A stretch of DNA of 42,975 bases from a virus (taxonomy: Duplodnaviria > Heunggongvirae > Uroviricota > Caudoviricetes), in the IMG/VR virus record IMGVR_UViG_2563366932_000014. One strand, written 5' to 3'. Below the pieces are notes generated by a model. The model was not told the DNA's origin. It saw nothing but the letters and a program-made list of their open reading frames with translations, and did not search any database. The translations under genes were made by a program, and so were the position numbers. Of this stretch, positions 1-11,730 are shown one piece after another. Each line of letters starts with the position of its first letter. Position 1 is the first letter of the stretch.

Positions 1-198
1 ATGGCACTGGACAGTTATGCATCTCCGAATATTATTCCGGAGCTAAGACAACCGAATGCCGCAGCAGGTAAGATCACGCTAGGGGGGCTGGACAGAATGG
101 CTGTTACGCCCAGTGTGAAGAAAAGAAGGCTAAGTATGGTAGAATTTCCATACGCACAGACCTTGTTATCCGACTATACAGCCTGGAAGGCACTATGA
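1..198 (+). CDS. hypothetical small protein (65 aa), first gene of a two-gene operon
   Basis: ORF starts at window position 1; its stop overlaps the next start (ATGA at 195-198), suggesting translational coupling; no recognisable family. Confidence 0.3.
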   Translation: MALDSYASPNIIPELRQPNAAAGKITLGGLDRMAVTPSVKKRRLSMVEFPYAQTLLSDYTAWKAL

Positions 199-983
199 CA
201 AATCTACAACTGGAAGAAAGATTTAGGGCGCTTGAGAAAGATTACGATGCGCTCATTTCCACAAAATATACTGCGCAGAACGTTCTCACTCACACTATGG
301 AAACCTATGTTGATTCTGGTAAATATAAAAACTGGATCGCCAGAGTGAAAAAGTTAATAGAGGACAGCTACGGAAAAGAGTCTGATTATTACAATGACTT
401 CAATACTGTAAACAGCAGGTGGTCTTCTAATTACAATACACTGATCAAAAGTTATAAACCGTTGTTTGATGCGGCGAGAGATGATCTTGCGCACTCTGCT
501 GTCAGTACTAATACTCCTCAAGAAGGTTCGCCGCTGAGCCTCGTACTTAATATTCTTAACAGGTTTCCGACCTTTGTTCGCCAGTTAAAGAGGCGGTACA
601 ACGGCCGTGCGCCGCTTGAAGTTAATGATGAGTATGACGTACAGGATTTGATTTATGCACTGCTGACGCTTCATTTTAATGATATTAGGGCGGAAGAGTA
701 TACCCCCAGCTTTGCGGGCGCGGCCTCAAGACAGGACTTTCTTTTGAAAAAAGAGAAAATTGTGATAGAGGTGAAGAAAACCCGTGAATCTCTGGGAGCG
801 GGTAAAGTTGGTGGAGAGTTGCTTATTGATATGGCGCGCTACCGCGCTCACCAAGACTGCGATACGTTGATCTTGTTTGTATATGACCCGGATTGCTACA
901 TAAATAATCCTTTGGGCGTGAAAACCGATCTGGAATCTAAAGACGCGGAAGGAAAAGTGAAGGTTGTTATTGCGCAGTTCTGA
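195..983 (+). CDS. hypothetical protein (262 aa) with C-terminal PD-(D/E)xK-like nuclease motif
   Basis: long ORF coupled to upstream ORF; C-terminal residues ..EYDVQDLIYALL.. and ..EKIVIEVKK.. fit a D...(D/E)xK pattern by eye; fold not verified. Confidence 0.5.
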   Translation: MTNLQLEERFRALEKDYDALISTKYTAQNVLTHTMETYVDSGKYKNWIARVKKLIEDSYGKESDYYNDFNTVNSRWSSNYNTLIKSYKPLFDAARDDLAHSAVSTNTPQEGSPLSLVLNILNRFPTFVRQLKRRYNGRAPLEVNDEYDVQDLIYALLTLHFNDIRAEEYTPSFAGAASRQDFLLKKEKIVIEVKKTRESLGAGKVGGELLIDMARYRAHQDCDTLILFVYDPDCYINNPLGVKTDLESKDAEGKVKVVIAQF

Positions 984-2301: not shown

Positions 2302-2715
2302 TAGACTGGCCCCCTGAATCTCCAGACAACCAATATCACTTATTTAAGTGATAGTCTTAATACTAGTTTTTAGACTAGTCATTGGAGAGCAGATGATTGA
2401 TGTCTTAGGACCGGAGAAACGCAGACGGCGTACCACACAGGAAAAGATCGCAATTGTTCAGCAGAGCTTTGAACCAGGGATGACGGTCTCCCTCGTTGCC
2501 CGGCAACACGGTGTGGCAGCCAGCCAGTTATTTCTCTGGCGTAAGCAATACCAGGAAGGAAGTCTTACTGCTGTCGCCGCCGGAGAACAGGTTGTTCCTG
2601 CCTCTGAACTTGCTGCCGCCATGAAGCAGATTAAAGAACTCCAGCGCCTGCTCGGCAAGAAAACGATGGAAAATGAACTCCTCAAAGAAGCCGTTGAATA
2701 TGGACGGGCAAAAAA

Positions 2716-3735
<1,020 letters not shown>

Positions 3736-3833
3736 TCAATTGACAACTTATAATCCCTACTAGTTAGCATTATGATTTCCAGAGTGAGGAATATAAAAAT
3801 CTCTGTTTCTGGCACATAACAGCCCTTAAGATC

Positions 3834-3891
3834 GTAGCTCGCCATCATGGGGTGTCGGGGGGCGGAGGTTCAAATCCTCTCGTGCCGACCA
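3834..3891 (+). other. 3' fragment of a tRNA-Pro(GGG)-like gene (anticodon loop through CCA), probable attachment-site remnant
   Basis: ..tcatggggtgtcgggg..ggaggttcaaatcctctcgtgccgacca: T-arm GGAGG-TTCAAAT-CCTCT, acceptor 3' strand and CCA present; no 5' strand pairs with the acceptor, so not an intact tRNA. Confidence 0.6.
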
Positions 3892-3906
3892 AAAATCCCT
3901 TAAGAA

Positions 3907-3931
3907 CCAGCCTATTATGGCTGGTTTTTTT
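3907..3931 (+). terminator. rho-independent terminator just after the tRNA fragment
   Basis: stem ccagcc/ggctgg, loop tattat, then 7 T. Confidence 0.7.
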
Positions 3932-4099
3932 ATGATTGTTTTTTATGCGGAGAAATACCGGGGAATAATTGGGGTAAAACACCTTTAGGCTATTCACTTA
4001 GCCTACCACCATCAAAATCTTTCCGAATGTATCCATCTCTTTTTTCTTATGCAGCTAAAACGAAGTCTTGATACTGTTTATTTACACAGATAAGAATAA

Positions 4100-4119
4100 T
4101 ACTGTCTACAAACGCAGTA
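4100..4119. promoter_or_regulatory. LexA (SOS) box-like site upstream of the dinI-like remnant
   Basis: tactgtctacaaacgcagta matches the TACTGT-N8-ACAGTA pattern with one mismatch, about 14 bp before the ATG. Confidence 0.5.
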
Positions 4120-4132
4120 CAAAAGAAGTGTT

Positions 4133-4380
4133 ATGCGTATTGAGATCTCCATAGCCAAAGACAAAATGACCAAATGCCAAACGGCGCTGTGGACGCGTTA
4201 AAGGAAGAATTAACCCAACACATTGGCAAGCGTTATGACGATGTGGAGATGATCGTAAAAGCCACCAGCAACGATAGTTTTTCAGTTAGACATACTGCAG
4301 ATAAAGATTGAGCTAAAACTTTCGTTCAGGAAACTCTGAATGATACCTGAGAGTCTACTGAAGAGTTGTTTGTTCACTAG
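4133..4380 (+). pseudogene. dinI-like gene remnant (frameshift plus two in-frame TGA stops)
   Basis: frame A gives [11 protein letters not shown]..; a second frame continues ..[37 protein letters not shown].. then stop; AKTFVQETLNDT stop ESTEELFVH stop; the pieces together resemble DinI (recalled, not searched). Confidence 0.5.
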
Positions 4381-4675
4381 TTAGCACGTAGGAAATCATT
4401 CAATACTCGCACTATCGGAAGTTCACCAGCCAGTCGTAGCACGTCCTTGCAAACGACGTGCCTACGGTTTCAATCACCTCTCACCATCAATTCTATCAAT
4501 AATAATTAAACAGCGCCTAGACAAAATAAATAACAACAAGTCAACAACCTCGACAGGATGCCGATGGGATGATGAAGAGATAAGAAAGAATAACCAGTAA
4601 AGCCCTAAAACGTCAGCGTTCAGACGCGTTTTTTACTTAATCGGTAACAAATACGTTGTATCATAGCAAAATAAA

Positions 4676-6625
4676 ATGATTGTTCTAAATCAGATTAACT
4701 CCTCACTTTTGTACAATGTCGCTTACAGGTATACCATGAAATCCGAGACGCTAACTGTCCAACAACTTTTTCAAGACCGCCGACAATACTGTGTTCCATT
4801 CTATCAACGTGCCTATGTATGGACTCAGCAAGACCAGTGGTCAGCTCTACTGGAGGATATCCTAGAGAAAGTACAATCCCGGCTCTCGGGTACAAAACCA
4901 ACTCCCCATTTCCTTGGTGCGGTTGTACTGGAACCTCAATCAAAAAAAGGATTATTAGGTGTAGATTCCATACATATTATTGATGGTCAGCAACGATTGA
5001 CCACTCTTCAATATGTTCTGGCATCCATCCGATTAGCATTACGTGCTACGGATCTTTCCAGCTTAGAGGCTCTCATTTCGCCTTGCCTGAAAAACTCAAA
5101 CGAAGACACAATGCGAAATAAAGAAGTAGAACGCTTCAAACTGTGGCCAACTTTTCGGGATCAAACTCATTTTATTCAAAGTTTTAATGTTGAAAATATT
5201 GACGATCTCCGGGACGTATTCTCTGATAGTTTCACGCAGCATGGTACGTTGCGTAAGCATTTTAATCACCCGCCATCACTAGAAGCATTATGTTTTTTTA
5301 CTGAAGCCTTTATAAAATGGATTAAAATAGAAAACCACTCACCACAAGAAAATGCTGTAGCTCTAATTGAGGCTGTCTTAACAGATCTGAAACTGGTAAG
5401 CATATTTCTCGAAGCTGAAGATGATGCCCAAATAATTTTTGAAACATTAAATGGGCGAGGGGCGGAACTTCATGCTACGGATCTTATTCGCAACTATATC
5501 TTTATGTGCGCTGAGCATGAAAATATTAATGCTATTGAATTATATGAAAATGAGTGGAAGAGCTTTGAAGATAAATACTGGTCGGAAAAACAACGCCGTG
5601 GACGTATTAATAAACCACGCATGGAGTGGCTAGTACATGCGACATTGCAATCAGAAAGGCAACGTGAAATTGATCTGTCTCGCCTTTACAATGAGTATCG
5701 TGATTATGTAAGTAAGGACTTGTCTTCACAACGAGCAGATCTGCAAGTAAAGCGCCTCAAACAATATGCATCACAATATAAAGAATTGGTTGATGGTTTT
5801 GGCACAACCCCCATCTCACACTTTGGATATCGCATCGCAGACTATGATGTGACGACACTTTATCCGCTTGCTTTGTTCATTTCGATAGCTAACATCGCTG
5901 ATGATGAGAAAGCAGCCATGTATAATGATCTTGTCTCCTACGTAGTACGAAGAGCCGTATGTGGCCTGACGCCAAAGAATTACAACAATGTATTTATGAA
6001 TGTATTGCGGCACTTGGCTAAAACGGAAATTTCCAGTGTTGAGTTACGTAATATCCTCAATAACTTAAATGGCGAAGCCTCACGTTGGCCTGGTGACTCA
6101 GAATTTCTCAACGCTTGCATCAATGCTCCACTTTATCCTGGCAGGCTCGACGCACCGAAAATGCGCTCAATGTTAACGGAACTTGAAAGAGAACTTTGTC
6201 GCCAAGTAAAGACAGAAAAGCCTGATGTTCCAAATCTTTCTAATCTCGATATCGATCATCTTATGCCTCAAAGTTGGTATTCCTGTTGGCCTCTCGAAAA
6301 TGGTCGTATGGTGACAAATTCAGATGCTACGGTATTGAACCAAATTGTTCTGTCTGGAACCGATCTTACCCCTGAACAGCTACTGGTAAGGAAACGGCAA
6401 CAAGCGATATCTACTTTGGGAAATCTAACTTTGCTTAACCTTAGCGTAAACCGTTCTGTTCAGAATGCTGTATTTCTGAAAAAACGTGATGCTCTCATCG
6501 TCCACACCAATCTACGACTGAACATTCCACTTATAGTTAAGGATAAATGGGATGAGGATGAAATCCTGGAGCGGGGTAAAAAGTTGGGGGAAATTGCATT
6601 GAAAGTATGGCCAAAACACGATTAA
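4676..6625 (+). CDS. GmrSD-family (DUF262 N-terminal, DUF1524/HNH-like C-terminal) putative type IV modification-dependent restriction endonuclease
   Basis: 649-aa ORF; N-terminal ..FYQRAYVW.. and DGQQR motif; C-terminal ..DIDHLMPQS.. and ..NLSVNRSVQN.. His-Me finger-like; AT-rich by inspection; start may be the ATG at 4736. Confidence 0.65.
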   Translation: MIVLNQINSSLLYNVAYRYTMKSETLTVQQLFQDRRQYCVPFYQRAYVWTQQDQWSALLEDILEKVQSRLSGTKPTPHFLGAVVLEPQSKKGLLGVDSIHIIDGQQRLTTLQYVLASIRLALRATDLSSLEALISPCLKNSNEDTMRNKEVERFKLWPTFRDQTHFIQSFNVENIDDLRDVFSDSFTQHGTLRKHFNHPPSLEALCFFTEAFIKWIKIENHSPQENAVALIEAVLTDLKLVSIFLEAEDDAQIIFETLNGRGAELHATDLIRNYIFMCAEHENINAIELYENEWKSFEDKYWSEKQRRGRINKPRMEWLVHATLQSERQREIDLSRLYNEYRDYVSKDLSSQRADLQVKRLKQYASQYKELVDGFGTTPISHFGYRIADYDVTTLYPLALFISIANIADDEKAAMYNDLVSYVVRRAVCGLTPKNYNNVFMNVLRHLAKTEISSVELRNILNNLNGEASRWPGDSEFLNACINAPLYPGRLDAPKMRSMLTELERELCRQVKTEKPDVPNLSNLDIDHLMPQSWYSCWPLENGRMVTNSDATVLNQIVLSGTDLTPEQLLVRKRQQAISTLGNLTLLNLSVNRSVQNAVFLKKRDALIVHTNLRLNIPLIVKDKWDEDEILERGKKLGEIALKVWPKHD

Positions 6626-6649
6626 TGCAATTAATAAAATGATTATAGT

Positions 6650-6669
6650 GGCCTTACATTAGTAAGGCC
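6650..6669 (+). terminator. hairpin downstream of the GmrSD-like gene (possible terminator)
   Basis: ggccttac atta gtaaggcc; no clean T-run follows. Confidence 0.3.
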
Positions 6670-6720
6670 GCTACTCACTATTAAATACTTTAATTTGCAT
6701 CAAGAACAGCAGTGTCAGCC

Positions 6721-6849
6721 CTAGGTCTCGGACTTTGTACCGCTTATCTTGTCTTCAAAAATCAGCTCGCATCCTGCACAGTTCAGCGCATTACGTTGTA
6801 GATCTGTGTTCTGGTCATTTGTTGACACACGTACATAGCCAATAAGCAT
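6721..6849 (-). pseudogene. truncated 5' remnant of a Pin/Gin/Cin-type serine DNA invertase gene
   Basis: minus strand encodes MLIGYVRVSTNDQNTDLQRNALNCAGCELIFEDKISGT.., then the match is lost and a stop follows; the remaining ~150 codons of an invertase are absent. Confidence 0.7.
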
Positions 6850-6903
6850 GGTAGATCTCCCTGACAAAAGCAGGAATGATGCCATTTGCTCGTTATTTCT
6901 GCA

Positions 6904-6929
6904 TTTTCATAAACGTTGGTTTGGGAGAA
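6904..6929. repeat. 26-bp hix/gix-like inversion crossover site, promoter-distal
   Basis: ttttcataaacg tt ggtttgggagaa; right half-site is the exact reverse complement of the left half-site of the site at 8831-8856; central dinucleotide TT versus AA. Confidence 0.65.
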
Positions 6930-7370
6930 GCGGCAAAACGGAATGTGGGCAACGGGGAAAACCAAATCCCTGATATGTCTTTCTGGACGGTTACTGGTGG
7001 CAATGGAAATTTTGTGATTCGTCAACCTGACGGGCTAATCATTCAGATGGTTACTGTAAGTATAAGCGGCCCAGTGGCGATGAATGGAATGACTGATAAT
7101 GCTTATGCCATCACAGGTTCTAATAAGTCTTATATTGCCACAGCCACATTGCCCTTTGTATTTCCTAATAAGGTGCTGGGCGTTATCCCTCTGGTATCAA
7201 CAACAGCTTATGGTGGTGTATCCAGTAATATTACAGGTTCATACGCGACGGCGGTTTGTTCTTTTGCCGCTGTCAGGGGGAATAATACGATTGTGTTCAA
7301 AGTCGACAAACCACTGAATGCAGCCTTTCCTTCAGATACCAGCGTCTCAGCGTTAATCATTGGACGGTAA
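6918..7370 (+). CDS. promoterless alternative tail-fibre C-terminal cassette (Sv'-like)
   Basis: frame is open from the crossover site; in-silico inversion would fuse it in frame to the constant N-terminal part (..ALENLGLGE) of the tail-fibre gene. Confidence 0.6.
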   Translation, partial: GLGEAAKRNVGNGENQIPDMSFWTVTGGNGNFVIRQPDGLIIQMVTVSISGPVAMNGMTDNAYAITGSNKSYIATATLPFVFPNKVLGVIPLVSTTAYGGVSSNITGSYATAVCSFAAVRGNNTIVFKVDKPLNAAFPSDTSVSALIIGR

Positions 7371-7372
7371 TA

Positions 7373-7816
7373 ATGAACTCAGTATTCTTTTCACCCGGAA
7401 GTAAAAGTTTTTATCTGCAAGAATTGTTTCCAGAATATGAGGATGCGGGAACGCTTCCTGATGATGTTATTGAAATTACCAGAGAAACATATGAGCAATT
7501 TCTTGGTCTGCATCCAGAAGGGAAAGAAATTGGCGCTGACAGTTCAGGACGGCCAGTATGGATTAATTCCCCACCCCCTTCAAAAGAGGATGAGGTGTTG
7601 ACGGCTGAAATGAAAAAAATATCTTTGGTTTCAGAAGTCAATACCTACATCAATACCCATCAGTGGCCTGGCAAAGCTGCTATTGGTCGTCTGAAAGGCG
7701 AGGAACTGGCGCAATATAATTCGTGGCTGGATTATCTGGACGCACTGGAACTGGTCGATACTTCCTGTGCGCCAGATATTGAATGGCCTACGCCTCCGGC
7801 AGTTCAGGCCAGATGA
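7373..7816 (+). CDS. alternative tail-fibre assembly protein (U'-like)
   Basis: 147-aa ORF right after the Sv' cassette; C-terminal ..WPTPPAVQAR resembles the tail-fibre assembly protein family; its 3' end overlaps the convergent assembly gene. Confidence 0.65.
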   Translation: MNSVFFSPGSKSFYLQELFPEYEDAGTLPDDVIEITRETYEQFLGLHPEGKEIGADSSGRPVWINSPPPSKEDEVLTAEMKKISLVSEVNTYINTHQWPGKAAIGRLKGEELAQYNSWLDYLDALELVDTSCAPDIEWPTPPAVQAR

Positions 7817-8390
7817 CATCCGGCGCTGTGCTGGTATTTGTTGCCGTCACCGCGTCAATGTAATCCAGCACAGCGTTAAGCCGGGTTGTTTCTGCCTGCA
7901 TCAGCTTCCGTCCGGCCTGTAATTTCAGCTGAATCAGACCGATGGAAGCCATTGCAGCATCAATCAGTGACTGACGCTGTGCTTCTGCCGCGTCTACTGC
8001 GGCGCTATGCTGTGCCTCAGTATCGGTCACCCATTTCTCACCATCCCATTTATCGTATGGCGTTAATGGGGCAATAGTGGTTGTATTTTCGGGGTAATCA
8101 CCCGGTGCTGTGATTTGTTTTGATTCTCCCGTTTCGGTGTTATAGACGATTTCACCGCGATGGTCTGGCACATATTCCCATGAATTTAAATTCACAGAAC
8201 GACAGATAGCATAACCCGCCTTATGTATACCTGGTGCATCCAGACAGGAATATGCCGGGATACCAACACCAACGGCAAGATATTCACTTGAAGTGGAAAT
8301 ATATTCCCGAGTTTCACCATCATAGTTATAAACGGTAATATCCCCTGCCTTTGTAGCAACAAGTCCACTATTTAATATTGCTTTATCCAT
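7788..8390 (-). CDS. tail-fibre assembly protein (Tfa/U-like)
   Basis: 200-aa ORF directly downstream of the tail-fibre gene. Confidence 0.7.
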   Translation of the reverse strand: MDKAILNSGLVATKAGDITVYNYDGETREYISTSSEYLAVGVGIPAYSCLDAPGIHKAGYAICRSVNLNSWEYVPDHRGEIVYNTETGESKQITAPGDYPENTTTIAPLTPYDKWDGEKWVTDTEAQHSAAVDAAEAQRQSLIDAAMASIGLIQLKLQAGRKLMQAETTRLNAVLDYIDAVTATNTSTAPDVIWPELPEA

Positions 8391-9133
8391 TATGCTGCTC
8401 TCACGATATAGTTAAATGCAATGTTGCGTGGACGGGTATCGACGGGGTTAACGGCCACTGTACCCGACACGGACTGGTCATTACCGTTGCTAACGGTAAT
8501 GTTACTACTGGTTGATCCAATCCCTACTGAATCGGTAAATTTAGCACCTGAGCCGCTCAAAGTTCCCGAGATGATAGCTAGCTCCACATAAAAAGTACCT
8601 ACAGTTGGCTCTTGTGTTGACAGCACCGCACGCCTTGAATCAACGCCGCGCCCATCATCCCAGCCACGAATAAACTCACCACGTAAATCAGGCAATTTAT
8701 TTGTCGGATAAGCCTTTGCCAGTTCCGGGTATTCTTCAGCAGAAAAAGCCGCACCGTTGCATTTCAGCCAGCCTGTTGGCGGTGTGGCTGAAGGCCATGG
8801 AACAGGCACACCAACAGGTAATGCAGAGCCTTCTCCCAAACCAAGGTTTTCGAGAGCCGTTTTCACCGTGCCGTCCGATTTGATATCGCTAAACGGATTC
8901 TTGCGGCTTAACAGCAGCGCACGAAGCGCGGTAAGCAGCTGGTCGTGCCGCGCCTTCTCCAGACTGGCACCGGATGCCTCCACCACGCTGCAGAGTTCTT
9001 CCTGCAACATGTCAAAGTAGTCATCATCCAGATCGGTGGCAGGCGTGCCTGTCTGGGGGTTACCACGGGTAAAACCGTTCTTACCCGCGCCGAACTTATC
9101 CTTCTGCGCGGTTTTCGTGTCTATACGATGCAT
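8390..9133 (-). CDS. tail-fibre protein (constant N-terminus plus currently expressed variable C-terminus)
   Basis: 247-aa ORF with tail-collar-like segment ..[18 protein letters not shown]..; crossover site lies inside it. Confidence 0.7.
8831..8856. repeat. 26-bp hix/gix-like inversion crossover site inside the tail-fibre gene
   Basis: ttctcccaaacc aa ggttttcgagag, of the form ..AAACC-NN-GGTTT..; encodes ..LENLGLGE.. Confidence 0.65.
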
Positions 9134-9136
9134 GGA

Positions 9137-9721
9137 TTACTCCGGATATTTAAAAATTACGTAGGTATGCGAAGGGCAGAGTTTGTTAAGCACACATTCG
9201 ACGACGGTGTCGCCCCAGATACGCAGCGCGGAATCACAGGGATCGCCACATGTCATCCAGGTGCTGTTGGTGGCGGCTGGCATGTTGACCTGCCAGTAAT
9301 ACCGCCATTCCGGCGCATTCACCGCGTCAGTACAGGCCGATGAGCAGGTGAACGTGCTTTTGTCGTATCGCGTGATGGTGGCGTCTGGTCTGCCCAGGGC
9401 AGCAAGCTGTGCAAGGTAAAAATCCTCATTGATGCCGCCCGCCAGGTTAACCTTCGCATCCAGTCGTTGCTGACGCTGGCGAAGGGTCTGTGTTCCTGCG
9501 GGAATACATTCATCCGGCAGGCCGCACAGACGCTCCCAGCGATTTATCAGTTCGGTGGTGGTGCGCGGATCCAGCTCCCGCATCAGGGCATCCGCACGCT
9601 GATGAACGCGGGTTAATGACTGTGCCGCACCGGCAATCGCCGGATCGCTGGCTGACCACGCCGGACCGGGCGGCAGCAGTGCCGACAACAGACGGATGTA
9701 ATCATCGTTTGTCACGCCCAT
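9137..9721 (-). CDS. tail/baseplate protein (Mu gp48-like)
   Basis: position between baseplate J and tail fibre; family call from recalled similarity. Confidence 0.5.
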
Positions 9722-10770
9722 GAAATCGTCCCCAGAACCGCCAGTTCATTTTTTGCAATGGAGATATTTTCCGCCGGTGCAAGCAATTGATGGCTGTATT
9801 CCCCGTTCGCACCGGAAATCGCTTCACTGATACGCGACACCTTCAGTTCTCCCTGCGGATAACCATCACGCAGCAGGAACGAACGCAACTCCGCGGTGAT
9901 GGCAGCCCGTATTTCCGGTGTATCCGGCGTCACACGGATATGAAAATCCACCGTATGCGCCACCGGCCTGAACACATACAAATCAGAGCCTGCCACCGGG
10001 GCCAGTGGCCCGATATGTTGTCTTGCCGCCGTTTCCGTTGATTCTTCCGGAATGGGATTAATCAGGTCACTGCTGGCAATCATCACACCGACAGTCCCCG
10101 TTCCCATCCAGTGACGGTATGCCCATGCGCGGGTAATGCCGGGCAATTCTTTAGCCCAGACAACATAGTCCCCGTCAGCCCCGCCCTGAGGCGTCCAGTA
10201 ATACCGCTCAATGACGCGGGCGCGCCACGTTTCCAGCTCTTCAGTATCAAATCCACCTGTCAGAGTGTCTGCCACGCCGGAAGACGGCAGACCATTAACC
10301 GGCGTGACCAGGATTAATGACGTACCGTCGTCAGCGTTACCGACCGCGCCTGCACTTGAGCAGGCGATCGGCACGCGCAGGACACCACCGGCGCTGGTTG
10401 CATCGGCAGTTGCCGTGTACTGAATCAGGTCATCGCGCTGAATAACACTCCCGGCGGTCACCTTCAGGCCATCGCTGACGCCTTCCCAGCGCATATACCC
10501 GCTGGCAGTCGTGGCCCCCTTGCGCGGACACCGTTTCATCGCAGCATGTCGCGCCAGCCAGGACTCATCGCACAGGTCAGGCAGCATGTTCATTGCCAGA
10601 TAATCGATGTACCCGTAAACCGTATGCAGCGCCGCCGCATACACCTTTGCCCGCACGTCTTCATCCATGCGCCGGAGCGTGTCGCTGACGTCCAGCCTGG
10701 CGAATAAATCGTTACGGAGCATACTGATATTTTCTGCCAGCGTCGGGCGCTGAAATTCACTGTCCGCCAT
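9712..10770 (-). CDS. baseplate J-like protein (Mu gp47-like)
   Basis: 352-aa ORF in baseplate gene order. Confidence 0.65.
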
Positions 10771-11185
10771 GCGTTATCGCACTCCACAGATCATCTAAAG
10801 AAATCATTACCGGTCCGTCACGACGCCAGAGAGTGATACTGTTACCCAGTTCATTAATCCCGGTGCGGAGGATATCCAGATCAATACGGGACACCACGCC
10901 GTCATCAATCATCCATTGCAGGCATTCGCGGATATACCCCCTTACCGTCTGCACCAGCTGATTGGTCAGTTTGCTGCGCTGAAGCAGCCACAGTCGGGAG
11001 CCGTAACGGTCATTCTGTACCGCAGGCCAGGTATCCCCCCACCATCCCATCGGGACGTCGGCGTTGTCATCAGGCTCCGCCCGCCGCCAGGTAAACAGGG
11101 AAATCACCACGGCGCGGGTCAGCGGATCCAGCGGTGCGCTGGCGCAGGTGCGTTTACCGTTCACCGTCAGCCACAGTTCCATCAT
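10757..11185 (-). CDS. baseplate protein (Mu gp46-like)
   Basis: 142-aa ORF between spike and J-like genes. Confidence 0.5.
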   Translation of the reverse strand: MMELWLTVNGKRTCASAPLDPLTRAVVISLFTWRRAEPDDNADVPMGWWGDTWPAVQNDRYGSRLWLLQRSKLTNQLVQTVRGYIRECLQWMIDDGVVSRIDLDILRTGINELGNSITLWRRDGPVMISLDDLWSAITHGGQ

Positions 11186-11730
11186 GCCTCCATCGCTTTA
11201 TCAGGTTTGTCGGTGTTACTGCCCTGACCGTTCTCTCTGTGACGATGCCCGTTATAGGCAAGCCGCATCGCTGACATGGTGGTGCCGCTGGAGTCGCACA
11301 GGTCTTTCACCTGTCCTGTCACTTCCAGGTCCATTTCAAAACGTGCTTCAGGTGCATTGCGAAACGTGATCGTTTTACCTGCACCGTCCACCACGATCCC
11401 CTCCCGGGTCAGCGTCACAGACTGCCCCTGATCGTCATAGACCGCCACCTCACCCGTCTGCAGCCCTTTCAGGCGGTAGCGCCGGTCCGACACCGTAACA
11501 ACCACCGCATGAGAACGGTCACCATCCGGAAACAACACCACCGCTTCCGCACCGCTGTTTGCCCTTGCGGTAAAACCGTAGGGTTCAAGATGTTCAACCC
11601 CGGCTTTGGGTTCACCGGCAATCAGGGACACATCCACGGTCTGACATTTCGTGGCGGCACTGATGCTTTTCACCACTGCCCGCCCAATCAGGCCGAGGAG
11701 TTGTCGCTGCATGGCTTCAATCGTACTCAT
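11182..11730 (-). CDS. baseplate assembly protein V / spike (Mu gp45-like)
   Basis: 182-aa ORF; position and translation fit gpV-like proteins. Confidence 0.6.
   Translation of the reverse strand: MSTIEAMQRQLLGLIGRAVVKSISAATKCQTVDVSLIAGEPKAGVEHLEPYGFTARANSGAEAVVLFPDGDRSHAVVVTVSDRRYRLKGLQTGEVAVYDDQGQSVTLTREGIVVDGAGKTITFRNAPEARFEMDLEVTGQVKDLCDSSGTTMSAMRLAYNGHRHRENGQGSNTDKPDKAMEA

What the first reader, a model, noticed from the sequence alone, without database searches (positions are those of the whole stretch)
6626..6849. Invertase gene cut off after ~37 codons where the restriction-gene island begins
The minus strand from 6849 encodes the recognisable N-terminus of a Pin/Gin/Cin serine invertase, including the catalytic-serine context VRVSTNDQ. 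The similarity stops abruptly near 6738 and a stop follows. What lies beyond is the 3' flank of the GmrSD-like gene. The defence gene therefore appears to have replaced most of the invertase gene, by insertion or deletion.
Basis: partly seen in the sequence, partly recalled or inferred. Interest (0 to 1): 0.6.

Follow-up and report, generated by a model that had tools for sequence, protein, structure and literature searches.

The report
Truncated prophage invertase beside GmrSD gene
A prophage gene for the enzyme that flips a tail-fibre switch was cut down to its first 41 codons when a known anti-phage restriction gene (GmrSD) took over the end of the prophage; this is an ordinary pseudogene, but the switch it served is still found in both orientations in near-identical strains.

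Summary
On the minus strand, ATG 6849 to TAG 6723-6721 encodes 42 codons. The first 41 are identical to PinE of e14-type prophages, including VRVSTNDQ (Pfam Resolvase E 2.9e-9). No other invertase-like sequence is in the window. DNA identity to intact pinE is 100% for 6900-6728, degenerate to about 6704, then absent. NCBI already annotates this as an incomplete recombinase pseudogene in UTI89.

At the icd site, K-12 e14 has pinE-mcrA-attR. A relative has the 5' stub of pin, then GmrSD, then attR. A 2.8-kb cassette replaced mcrA plus the 3' three-quarters of pinE. About 290-300 of 5,426 complete E. coli genomes share the same junction in at least three contexts, so it arose once. The GmrSD is the characterised UTI89 'UT enzyme'.

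The stub keeps the crossover site and the stretch where the Fis enhancer lies in hin. The 1.9-kb tail-fibre segment is precisely inverted in IHE3034 and APEC O1, with identical or near-identical flanks. Among module carriers, 84 genomes have the window's orientation and 29 the inverted one. The segment therefore flipped after the truncation, most likely through an invertase supplied in trans, which I did not identify. Modest interest.

The parts
6721..6849 (-). pin' : 42-codon remnant ORF plus stop of an e14-type PinE serine invertase; codons 1-41 identical to intact PinE, including the catalytic-serine motif VRVSTNDQ
   Evidence: annotated as an incomplete recombinase pseudogene in UTI89
6704..6727 (-). 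Degenerate tail of pin-derived sequence (~70% identity with two indels to YPE12/CAVP746 pinE); the true end of invertase homology
   Evidence: pinE alleles match from query position 505 = window 6704, or 529 = window 6728
6626..6703 (.). Spacer that belongs to the GmrSD cassette, with a 12-bp-stem hairpin at 6646-6673; probable terminator of GmrSD, not called by the T-run scan
   Evidence: conserved at 96% with the junction in L008 and L009
4736..6625 (+). GmrSD (DUF262 + DUF1524) type IV restriction enzyme, convergent with pin'; identical in sequence to the copy annotated in UTI89, identified from the paper's description as UTI89_C2960, the 'UT enzyme'
   Evidence: Pfam GmrSD_N 7e-34 and GmrSD_C 4e-20; PADLOC mREase_IV 1415 bits over 1-629/629; 100% DNA identity to UTI89; PMC4437046
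6904..6929 (-). Crossover site next to pin' (TTCTCCCAAACCAACGTTTATGAAAA); contains inverted-repeat arm 6911-6930; aligns with the Mu gix site; centre at 6916/6917
   Evidence: the e14 P-segment repeat TTGGTTTGGGAGAAGG is given in PMC12529663
8830..8856 (+). Second crossover site (TTCTCCCAAACCAAGGTTTTCGAGAG at 8831-8856) inside the tail-fibre gene; contains inverted-repeat arm 8830-8849
6931..8829 (.). Invertible segment: alternative fibre C-terminus (to 7370, +), its tail fibre assembly (tfa) chaperone 7373-7816 (+), tfaE 7788-8390 (-), and the currently joined fibre C-terminus 8390-8829 (-)
   Evidence: found precisely inverted in APEC O1 and IHE3034; both orientations give a 247-aa fibre
8390..9133 (-). 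Tail-fibre gene as assembled in this orientation: constant N-terminus 9133-8850 plus variable C-terminus
   Evidence: (Collar domain)
6764..6828 (-). Predicted Fis-dependent recombinational enhancer within pin' codons 8-29. A Fis-like 15-mer GTGTCAACAAATGAC lies at 6828-6814, 95 bp from the crossover centre. Inferred by position and by homology to gin/hin; not tested
   Evidence: enhancer size, spacing and location in hin from PMC3798978 and PMC2724282
3834..4350 (+). Left part of the mosaic next to GmrSD: tRNA-Pro 3' fragment (3834-3900, attP-type) and DinI-like pseudogene (4133-4350)

Best explanation
The feature is the dead 5' stub of a PinE-type serine DNA invertase in an apparently complete e14/SfV-like prophage that lies between ssrA and glaH. 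Shown: the space between the invertase gene and the attachment site of such prophages holds exchangeable defence cargo. That cargo is mcrA in K-12 e14, a PD-T4-3 GIY-YIG nuclease (with or without a type II restriction-modification pair) in other relatives, and GmrSD here. In one ancestral event a GmrSD cassette with its own hairpin replaced the previous cargo and the last three quarters of the invertase gene. It left 122-146 nt of coding sequence. That single junction has since spread by descent and recombination into several prophage and attachment-site contexts. Inferred: a 41-residue stub cannot be an enzyme, because it lacks most of the catalytic domain and the whole DNA-binding domain. 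However, it still carries the cis-acting DNA of the switch. These are the gix/pix-type crossover site 67 bp upstream of the ATG, and the stretch (codons 8-29) where the 65-bp Fis enhancer lies in hin. Shown: the tail-fibre segment has been cleanly inverted at the 20-bp repeats after the truncation. Inferred: this was done by an invertase supplied in trans, from another prophage, a plasmid or a superinfecting phage, either in the present host or in an earlier host of this probably mobile prophage. Flipping appears infrequent.
For: Stub identity and absence of any other invertase sequence. Breakpoint mapping against four intact pinE alleles. Replacement reconstructed at the icd site, K-12 e14 against SOI121. 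Single origin: 288 genomes cover at least 80% of 6560-6900 and 298 cover at least 80% of 6200-6800. All nine sampled rows that contain GmrSD run through the junction, and none stops at the cassette edge. The junction occurs in three contexts: ssrA prophage, icd prophage and a lambdoid prophage. Cargo variety downstream of intact pinE. Inversion after truncation: in IHE3034 the flanks 3632-6930 and 8830-11730 are 100% identical to the window, while 6911-8849 is reverse-complemented. The only two mismatches fall at the asymmetric outer position of each repeat, as expected for exchange inside the site. 84 genomes carry the whole module in the window's orientation and 29 in the inverted one. Both orientations encode a 247-aa fibre. 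Trans action has precedent: PinQ of prophage Qin inverts the e14 P segment, which has the same repeat (PMC12529663). [quoted passage not shown] The corresponding pin' DNA aligns closely with Mu gin.
Against: No trans-acting invertase was identified. PMV-1 has the inverted orientation but no blastn match to the missing part of pinE or to pinQ on its chromosome. Extra matches in other strains were not located. At least one common class of such matches is only a 168-nt remnant. Having an extra match is not significantly linked to the inverted orientation (8/9 against 16/29, Fisher p = 0.11). Near-clonal assembly pairs that I judged from near-identical chromosome lengths (N21/N41, GN06489/GN06758, E16002/E18006, four UTI89 records) agree in orientation, so switching is not fast. 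Enhancer function is inferred only. Synonymous-site conservation between pinE and gin is raised only in codons 1-15. The lambdoid-prophage lineage (L004/L008) has a 1-bp deletion at coding nt 89-93, just beyond the predicted 65-bp enhancer (coding nt 22-86). It frameshifts the stub ORF. The number of independent inversions in the lineage was not established.
Confidence: 0.8

Rival explanations
1. The stub is a plain pseudogene and the switch is now locked. The two orientations arose without any site-specific recombinase. Either rare RecA-type recombination occurred between the 20-bp repeats, or homologous exchange or re-lysogeny brought in a copy that had been flipped elsewhere.
For: No invertase candidate was verified. 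PMV-1 is inverted without any detectable homologue. Near-clonal assemblies agree in orientation. The prophage looks complete and could move between strains.
Against: The repeats share only 15 identical bases inside the asymmetric position, which by my own knowledge is far below efficient RecA substrate length. The inversion is exact at sites that match the experimentally used e14 crossover repeat. The flanks are 100% identical over 6.2 kb in IHE3034, so import from a diverged relative with an intact pin is unlikely. A copy flipped in another host still needed an invertase acting in trans there.
Confidence: 0.17
2. The 42-codon ORF is kept because its peptide does something, for example as a dominant-negative or regulatory fragment of the invertase.
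For: The ORF has its native start and upstream region and is identical to PinE for 41 codons.
Against: The same stub is frameshifted by a 1-bp deletion in L004/L008. It ends at a different place in L009, where one extra base lets it read on. A 41-residue piece lacks the dimer helix and most of the catalytic domain, since the Pfam match covers profile positions 2-48 of 145. The stub is no better conserved than its neighbours: 96.7% against 96.2% for the spacer.
Confidence: 0.02
3. The truncation is apparent only: a sequencing or assembly error, or a full-length gene in another frame or displaced nearby.
For: None found.
Against: tblastn with PinE finds only residues 1-44 anywhere in the window. 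The identical junction is present in ~290-300 independent complete genomes.
Confidence: 0.01

Closest known systems
pinE-mcrA right end of cryptic prophage e14 (E. coli K-12)
   Same: Same gene order and the same site. The invertible tail-fibre segment has the same crossover repeat. The invertase gene comes next, then a modification-dependent (type IV) restriction gene, then the attachment site. pinE 5' DNA is 95% identical to the window's stub.
   Different: In e14 pinE is intact and mcrA is co-directional with it. Here the restriction gene is GmrSD, it is convergent, and it has removed the invertase gene from codon ~42-49 onward.
Gin/Cin/Hin/Pin DNA invertase systems with a Fis enhancer inside the invertase gene
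   Same: The crossover sites align with Mu gix. The catalytic-serine motif and the 5' coding DNA are conserved with gin. The predicted proximal Fis site lies 95 bp from the crossover centre, against ~100 bp in hin.
   Different: The enzyme itself is gone; only the cis elements remain.
Cross-acting invertases: PinQ of Qin on the e14 P segment (PMC12529663); Fin of Fels-2 on the Salmonella H segment (Kutsukake 2006, my own knowledge plus the reference list seen)
   Same: An invertase encoded on one mobile element flips a segment on another. This is what the post-truncation inversions here require.
   Different: In those cases the resident invertase is also present. Here the segment would depend entirely on foreign enzymes, and no donor has been identified.
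EcoUTI89GmrSD / Eco94GmrSD single-chain type IV restriction enzymes (PMC4437046)
   Same: The window's gene is identical in sequence to the UTI89 copy. That paper already noted that these genes sit on prophages directly beside tail-fibre genes.
   Different: The paper does not mention the invertase stub ('invertase' occurs 0 times) or the invertible segment.

Membership tests
Serine DNA invertase (Pin/Gin/Cin/Hin; Pfam Resolvase PF00239 + C-terminal HTH) | N-terminal catalytic-serine motif | tested here: met
   YVRVSTNDQ is present; residues 1-41 are identical to PinE; Pfam E 2.9e-9
Serine DNA invertase (Pin/Gin/Cin/Hin; Pfam Resolvase PF00239 + C-terminal HTH) | Complete catalytic domain (~140 aa) including the oligomerisation helix | tested here: not met
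   The match covers profile positions 2-48 of 145 only; a stop follows at codon 43
Serine DNA invertase (Pin/Gin/Cin/Hin; Pfam Resolvase PF00239 + C-terminal HTH) | C-terminal helix-turn-helix DNA-binding domain | tested here: not met
   No match to PinE residues 45-184 anywhere in the window
Invertase-controlled tail-fibre switch (Mu G / P1 C / e14 P segment type) | Two inverted crossover sites of gix/pix type, one inside the fibre gene and one next to the invertase gene | tested here: met
   Inverted-repeat arms 6911-6930 and 8830-8849; they align with Mu gix; they contain the e14 repeat quoted in PMC12529663
Invertase-controlled tail-fibre switch (Mu G / P1 C / e14 P segment type) | Two alternative fibre C-termini, each with its own assembly chaperone, in opposite orientation | tested here: met
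   ORFs 6876-7370/7373-7816 (+) and 8390-9133/7788-8390 (-); both tail fibre assembly genes match Caudo_TAP; both orientations give a 247-aa fibre
Invertase-controlled tail-fibre switch (Mu G / P1 C / e14 P segment type) | Both orientations occur in nature | tested here: met
   84 genomes have the window's orientation and 29 the inverted one; the inversion is exact in APEC O1 and IHE3034
Invertase-controlled tail-fibre switch (Mu G / P1 C / e14 P segment type) | Functional Fis-dependent enhancer in cis | not testable with these tools
   The homologous DNA (6828-6764) is retained and lies at the expected distance, but Fis binding and enhancer activity need experiments
Invertase-controlled tail-fibre switch (Mu G / P1 C / e14 P segment type) | A resident active invertase | tested here: not met
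   Only the 41-codon stub is present in the window
GmrSD type IV restriction enzyme | DUF262 (GmrS) N-terminal and DUF1524 (GmrD, HNH-type) C-terminal domains in one chain | tested here: met
   Pfam GmrSD_N 7.2e-34 and GmrSD_C 3.8e-20; PADLOC mREase_IV full-length match, 1415 bits
GmrSD type IV restriction enzyme | Restriction of phages with glucosyl-hydroxymethylcytosine DNA | not testable with these tools
   Reported for the UTI89 enzyme, which has the same sequence (restricts T2 and T6, insensitive to IPI*) in PMC4437046

The most novel reading that the evidence does not exclude
The stub persists because it is still a working part. It carries the crossover site and the Fis enhancer of an 'orphan' tail-fibre switch that is now operated only by invertases of other mobile elements. 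Defence-gene swaps at this prophage end may survive only when they cut the invertase gene beyond the enhancer. Two independent junctions, at coding nt ~107 (XF1762-family fusion, L005) and nt 122-146 (GmrSD), both lie just past the predicted enhancer end at nt 86. Given the report that inversion of the homologous e14 segment blocks T2 adsorption, the orientation could also matter for host defence, next to a restriction enzyme reported to restrict T2 and T6.
Probability: 0.3. Interest if true: 0.55.

Novelty: new member of a known kind. Interest (0 to 1): 0.35.

Why it matters
The finding documents, base by base, how the defence cargo at the end of e14-type prophages is exchanged. One type IV restriction gene (mcrA) was swapped for another (GmrSD), and the exchange removed most of the neighbouring gene. 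It also gives a natural case in which a phase-variable tail-fibre switch lost its own recombinase yet still changed orientation. That bears on cross-talk between invertases of co-resident prophages. It also bears on how annotation pipelines should treat 'incomplete recombinase' stubs, which may still hold cis-acting sites. The pseudogene itself is routine and already annotated.

Tried and rejected
1. I looked for a trans-acting invertase in the UTI89-type genomes. Queries joining a GmrSD-specific 701 bp to the missing part of pinE, or to K-12 pinQ, gave per-chromosome counts of extra matches. The tool does not report where second matches lie. A spread listing and inspection of one common class (a 168-nt remnant near ypjA) showed that such matches need not be intact genes. 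I read the UTI89 prophage at icd and it holds no invertase. The donor remains unidentified.

2. I tested for dual coding constraint on the enhancer by synonymous-site conservation between pinE and gin. There was a weak signal in codons 1-15 only, so I did not use it as evidence.

3. I compared conservation of the stub with its neighbours across three lineages. There was no excess conservation.

4. I searched for GmrSD relatives in sequenced phages (none at E 1e-20) and in one genome per species. The closest, at 78% identity in Enterobacteriaceae bacterium B14, has no invertase remnant, and DNA homology ends inside the coding sequence. The cassette's donor and the pre-truncation state were not recovered.

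5. YPE12 (L007), a close relative with an intact pinE, cannot serve as a simple 'before' state. Its PD-T4-3 gene is convergent with pinE, whereas here that gene is 3 kb away, on the same strand as the stub, and only 74% identical.

6. The consensus scan found no promoter in 6450-7000, and its only terminator-like site lies inside the segment (6953-6972), not in the spacer.

7. Two look-ups for the Kutsukake 2006 paper and the Johnson 2015 review failed because the papers are not held.

Full report
**What is there**

The window matches UTI89, S88 and related extraintestinal pathogenic E. coli at 100% identity over 4300-9200. By my own knowledge these belong to the ST95 complex.

In UTI89 the region lies just downstream of ssrA. 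It is the cargo-plus-tail end of an apparently complete e14/SfV-like prophage. That prophage has a contractile tail, an HK97-type head, ymfK/ymfL/ymfQ/ymfR-type genes, and an integrase at the far end next to glaH.

The window differs from UTI89 by an IS3-family insertion at 2305-3631.

On the minus strand, ATG 6849 opens a 42-codon ORF, MLIGYVRVSTNDQ...ISGTKSET*, that stops at 6723-6721. Support for its identity:
- Pfam Resolvase matches at E 2.9e-9, covering profile positions 2-48 of 145.
- tblastn with an intact PinE matches residues 1-44 and nothing else in the window.
- PGAP already marks these 123 nt in UTI89 as an incomplete recombinase gene missing its C-terminus.

**Breakpoint**

Against O157-type pinE, DNA identity is 100% from 6900 down to 6728 and then collapses. 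Against the YPE12 and CAVP746 alleles the alignment continues, at about 70% identity with two indels, to about 6704.

In strain SOI121 one extra base keeps the frame open. The peptide there continues ...SESLGLTVLFL, faintly like PinE ...SERPGLKKLLR.

So invertase-derived DNA ends near 6704. The piece 6704-6727 is oddly diverged next to a perfectly conserved 5' part. That could reflect an old divergent allele whose 5' part was later homogenised by exchange with other pin genes. This was not resolved.

From 6703 to 6626 lies a spacer with a strong hairpin at 6646-6673 (dG -25.8 kcal/mol, z -6.0). The stop codon of the convergent GmrSD gene (4736-6625) follows.

**The replacement event**

K-12 e14, oriented like the window, reads iraM, icd', mcrA, pinE, invertible segment (L011). 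SOI121 carries a full e14-like prophage at the same site. It reads iraM, icd', GmrSD, pin stub, invertible segment (L009).

BLAST between the two shows homology up to a few bases past icd'. Then 2,787 bp in SOI121 stand in for 1,584 bp in K-12. Homology resumes at pinE coding nt ~136.

GmrSD therefore replaced mcrA, the spacers and the 3' ~420 nt of pinE.

The junction is not private to this strain:
- 288 genomes cover at least 80% of 6560-6900, and 298 cover at least 80% of 6200-6800.
- Every sampled row that contains GmrSD runs through the junction.
- The junction sits in at least three contexts: the ssrA prophage here, the icd prophage (L009), and a lambdoid prophage (L008).
- A derivative of the lambdoid prophage has IS903 removing GmrSD 50 bp past the junction (L004).
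- GmrSD coding sequences in these contexts differ by 3.5-7%.

The junction therefore arose once, long ago.

To the left of GmrSD the contexts differ. In the window there is a 3' fragment of tRNA-Pro (an attP-type piece) and a DinI-like pseudogene. Both match the end of a prophage integrated at proL in another strain.

**A cargo hotspot**

The genes downstream of intact pinE in relatives vary:
- mcrA in K-12.
- A GIY-YIG protein that matches the PD-T4-3 defence family over its full length.
- That GIY-YIG protein plus a type II methylase and endonuclease in YPE12.

One strain shows a second, independent cut of pin at coding nt ~107. There the ORF runs into an XF1762-family protein.

The window's GmrSD matches the PADLOC type IV model over 629/629 positions. 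It is identical in sequence to the UTI89 copy. That enzyme, UTI89_C2960, is reported to restrict T2 and T6 and to resist the T4 inhibitor IPI*. Its authors noted that such genes lie beside prophage tail-fibre genes (PMC4437046). They do not mention an invertase.

**What the stub still carries**

The inverted-repeat arms at 6911-6930 and 8830-8849 contain the repeat used for e14 P-segment inversion (PMC12529663). The 26-bp sites align with Mu gix.

They bracket a standard fibre switch. It has two alternative C-termini with two chaperones, and both orientations yield a 247-aa fibre.

In hin the Fis enhancer is 65 bp long. [quoted passage not shown]

The corresponding stretch of the stub (6828-6764) is retained. 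It aligns closely with gin. It starts with a Fis-like 15-mer, GTGTCAACAAATGAC, 95 bp from the crossover centre. Both independent truncations end beyond it. Enhancer activity itself is inferred, not shown.

**The segment flipped after the truncation**

In IHE3034 the flanks 3632-6930 and 8830-11730 are identical to the window, while 6911-8849 is reverse-complemented. APEC O1 is the same apart from one indel and one mismatch. The only two mismatches in the inverted block are at the asymmetric outer base of each repeat. That pattern is expected if exchange occurs inside the site.

With mirror-image 4.9-kb queries, 84 genomes carry the module in the window's orientation and 29 in the inverted one. 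Most of the 29 are 98-100% identical to the window.

All these genomes share the same stub-GmrSD junction, so the inversion(s) came after the loss of the enzyme. Both orientations occur among O18:K1:H7 strains (UTI89 against IHE3034; the IHE3034 serotype is from my own knowledge) and among O1:K1:H7 strains (APEC E16002 against APEC O1). This hints at more than one event, but I could not build a tree.

Near-clonal assembly pairs agree in orientation, so flipping is not rapid. I judged clonality from near-identical chromosome lengths.

**Who does the flipping is open**

Counts of extra blastn matches to the missing part of pinE and to pinQ, in that order, vary by strain:

| Strain | pinE 3' part | pinQ |
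|---|---|---|
| UTI89 | 1 | 0 |
| IHE3034 | 1 | 0 |
| S88 | 0 | 1 |
| APEC O1 | 0 | 1 |
| PMV-1 | 0 | 0 |

The matches were not located, and they can be mere remnants. Plasmids were not covered.

Having an extra match is not significantly linked to the inverted orientation (8/9 against 16/29, p = 0.11).

PinQ is shown to invert the e14 segment in trans. In the same paper the complete pinE deletion mutant is locked. That fits an enhancer inside pinE, though the authors do not say so.

The prophage looks complete. Inversion could therefore also have happened in a former host that carried an invertase.

**Verdict**

The pseudogene is ordinary and already annotated, and the GmrSD and its position next to tail-fibre genes are published.

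What I did not find described in the papers I searched:
- The exact reconstruction of the mcrA-to-GmrSD swap that truncated pinE.
- Its single origin and wide spread.
- The evidence that the orphaned fibre switch still changed orientation.

Noticed in passing
window 3834-3900 (and to 4350): A 3' fragment of a tRNA-Pro gene (T-arm and acceptor end; ARAGORN calls no whole tRNA), followed by a terminator-like hairpin and a DinI-like pseudogene (4133-4350). The same arrangement sits next to the real proL gene in strain 51008369SK1. It looks like the attP-side end of a proL-integrating prophage, now buried in the cargo arm of the ssrA prophage.
   Followed up: partly
window 2305-3631 (gene pieces 1575-2304 and 3632-3684, minus strand): An IS3-family element splits a GIY-YIG gene. 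The intact UTI89 copy of that gene matches the PD-T4-3 anti-phage family over its full length (453 bits). UTI89 lacks the insertion.
   Followed up: partly
window 195-983 (+): A 262-aa protein with a DpnII/MboI-type restriction endonuclease domain (Pfam 9.5e-49). It partly matches Argonaute-associated REase models in PADLOC. No methyltransferase gene was seen among its immediate neighbours.
   Followed up: no
L005 6052-6756 (strain 09A19CPO009): An independent truncation of pin at coding nt ~107. The annotated ORF starts at the pin ATG and continues into an XF1762-family protein, with the family match beginning at residue 75 of 234. It is followed by a 344-aa protein of unknown family, next to torT.
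   Followed up: partly
L014 2586-4476 (APEC O1): The APEC O1 copy of the same GmrSD gene is annotated as frameshifted. There is one indel relative to the window.
   Followed up: no
L022 3985-4152 (strain NCTC122, near ypjA): A 168-nt internal remnant of a pin-like recombinase gene, missing both ends, lies in the ypjA/ypjC region. The same short match appears in many other genomes. It inflates blastn counts of 'invertase homologues'.
   Followed up: partly
L007 6844-9520 (strain YPE12): A close relative of this prophage has an intact pinE. Downstream it carries PD-T4-3 plus a cytosine methyltransferase and a type II restriction endonuclease. This is another cargo set at the same prophage end.
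   Followed up: no
window 6704-6727: These 24 bases are only ~70% like any intact pin allele, directly next to 173 bases that are 100% identical to O157 pinE. The step in divergence is unexplained. It may reflect gene conversion of the 5' part, or mutation at the junction.
   Followed up: partly
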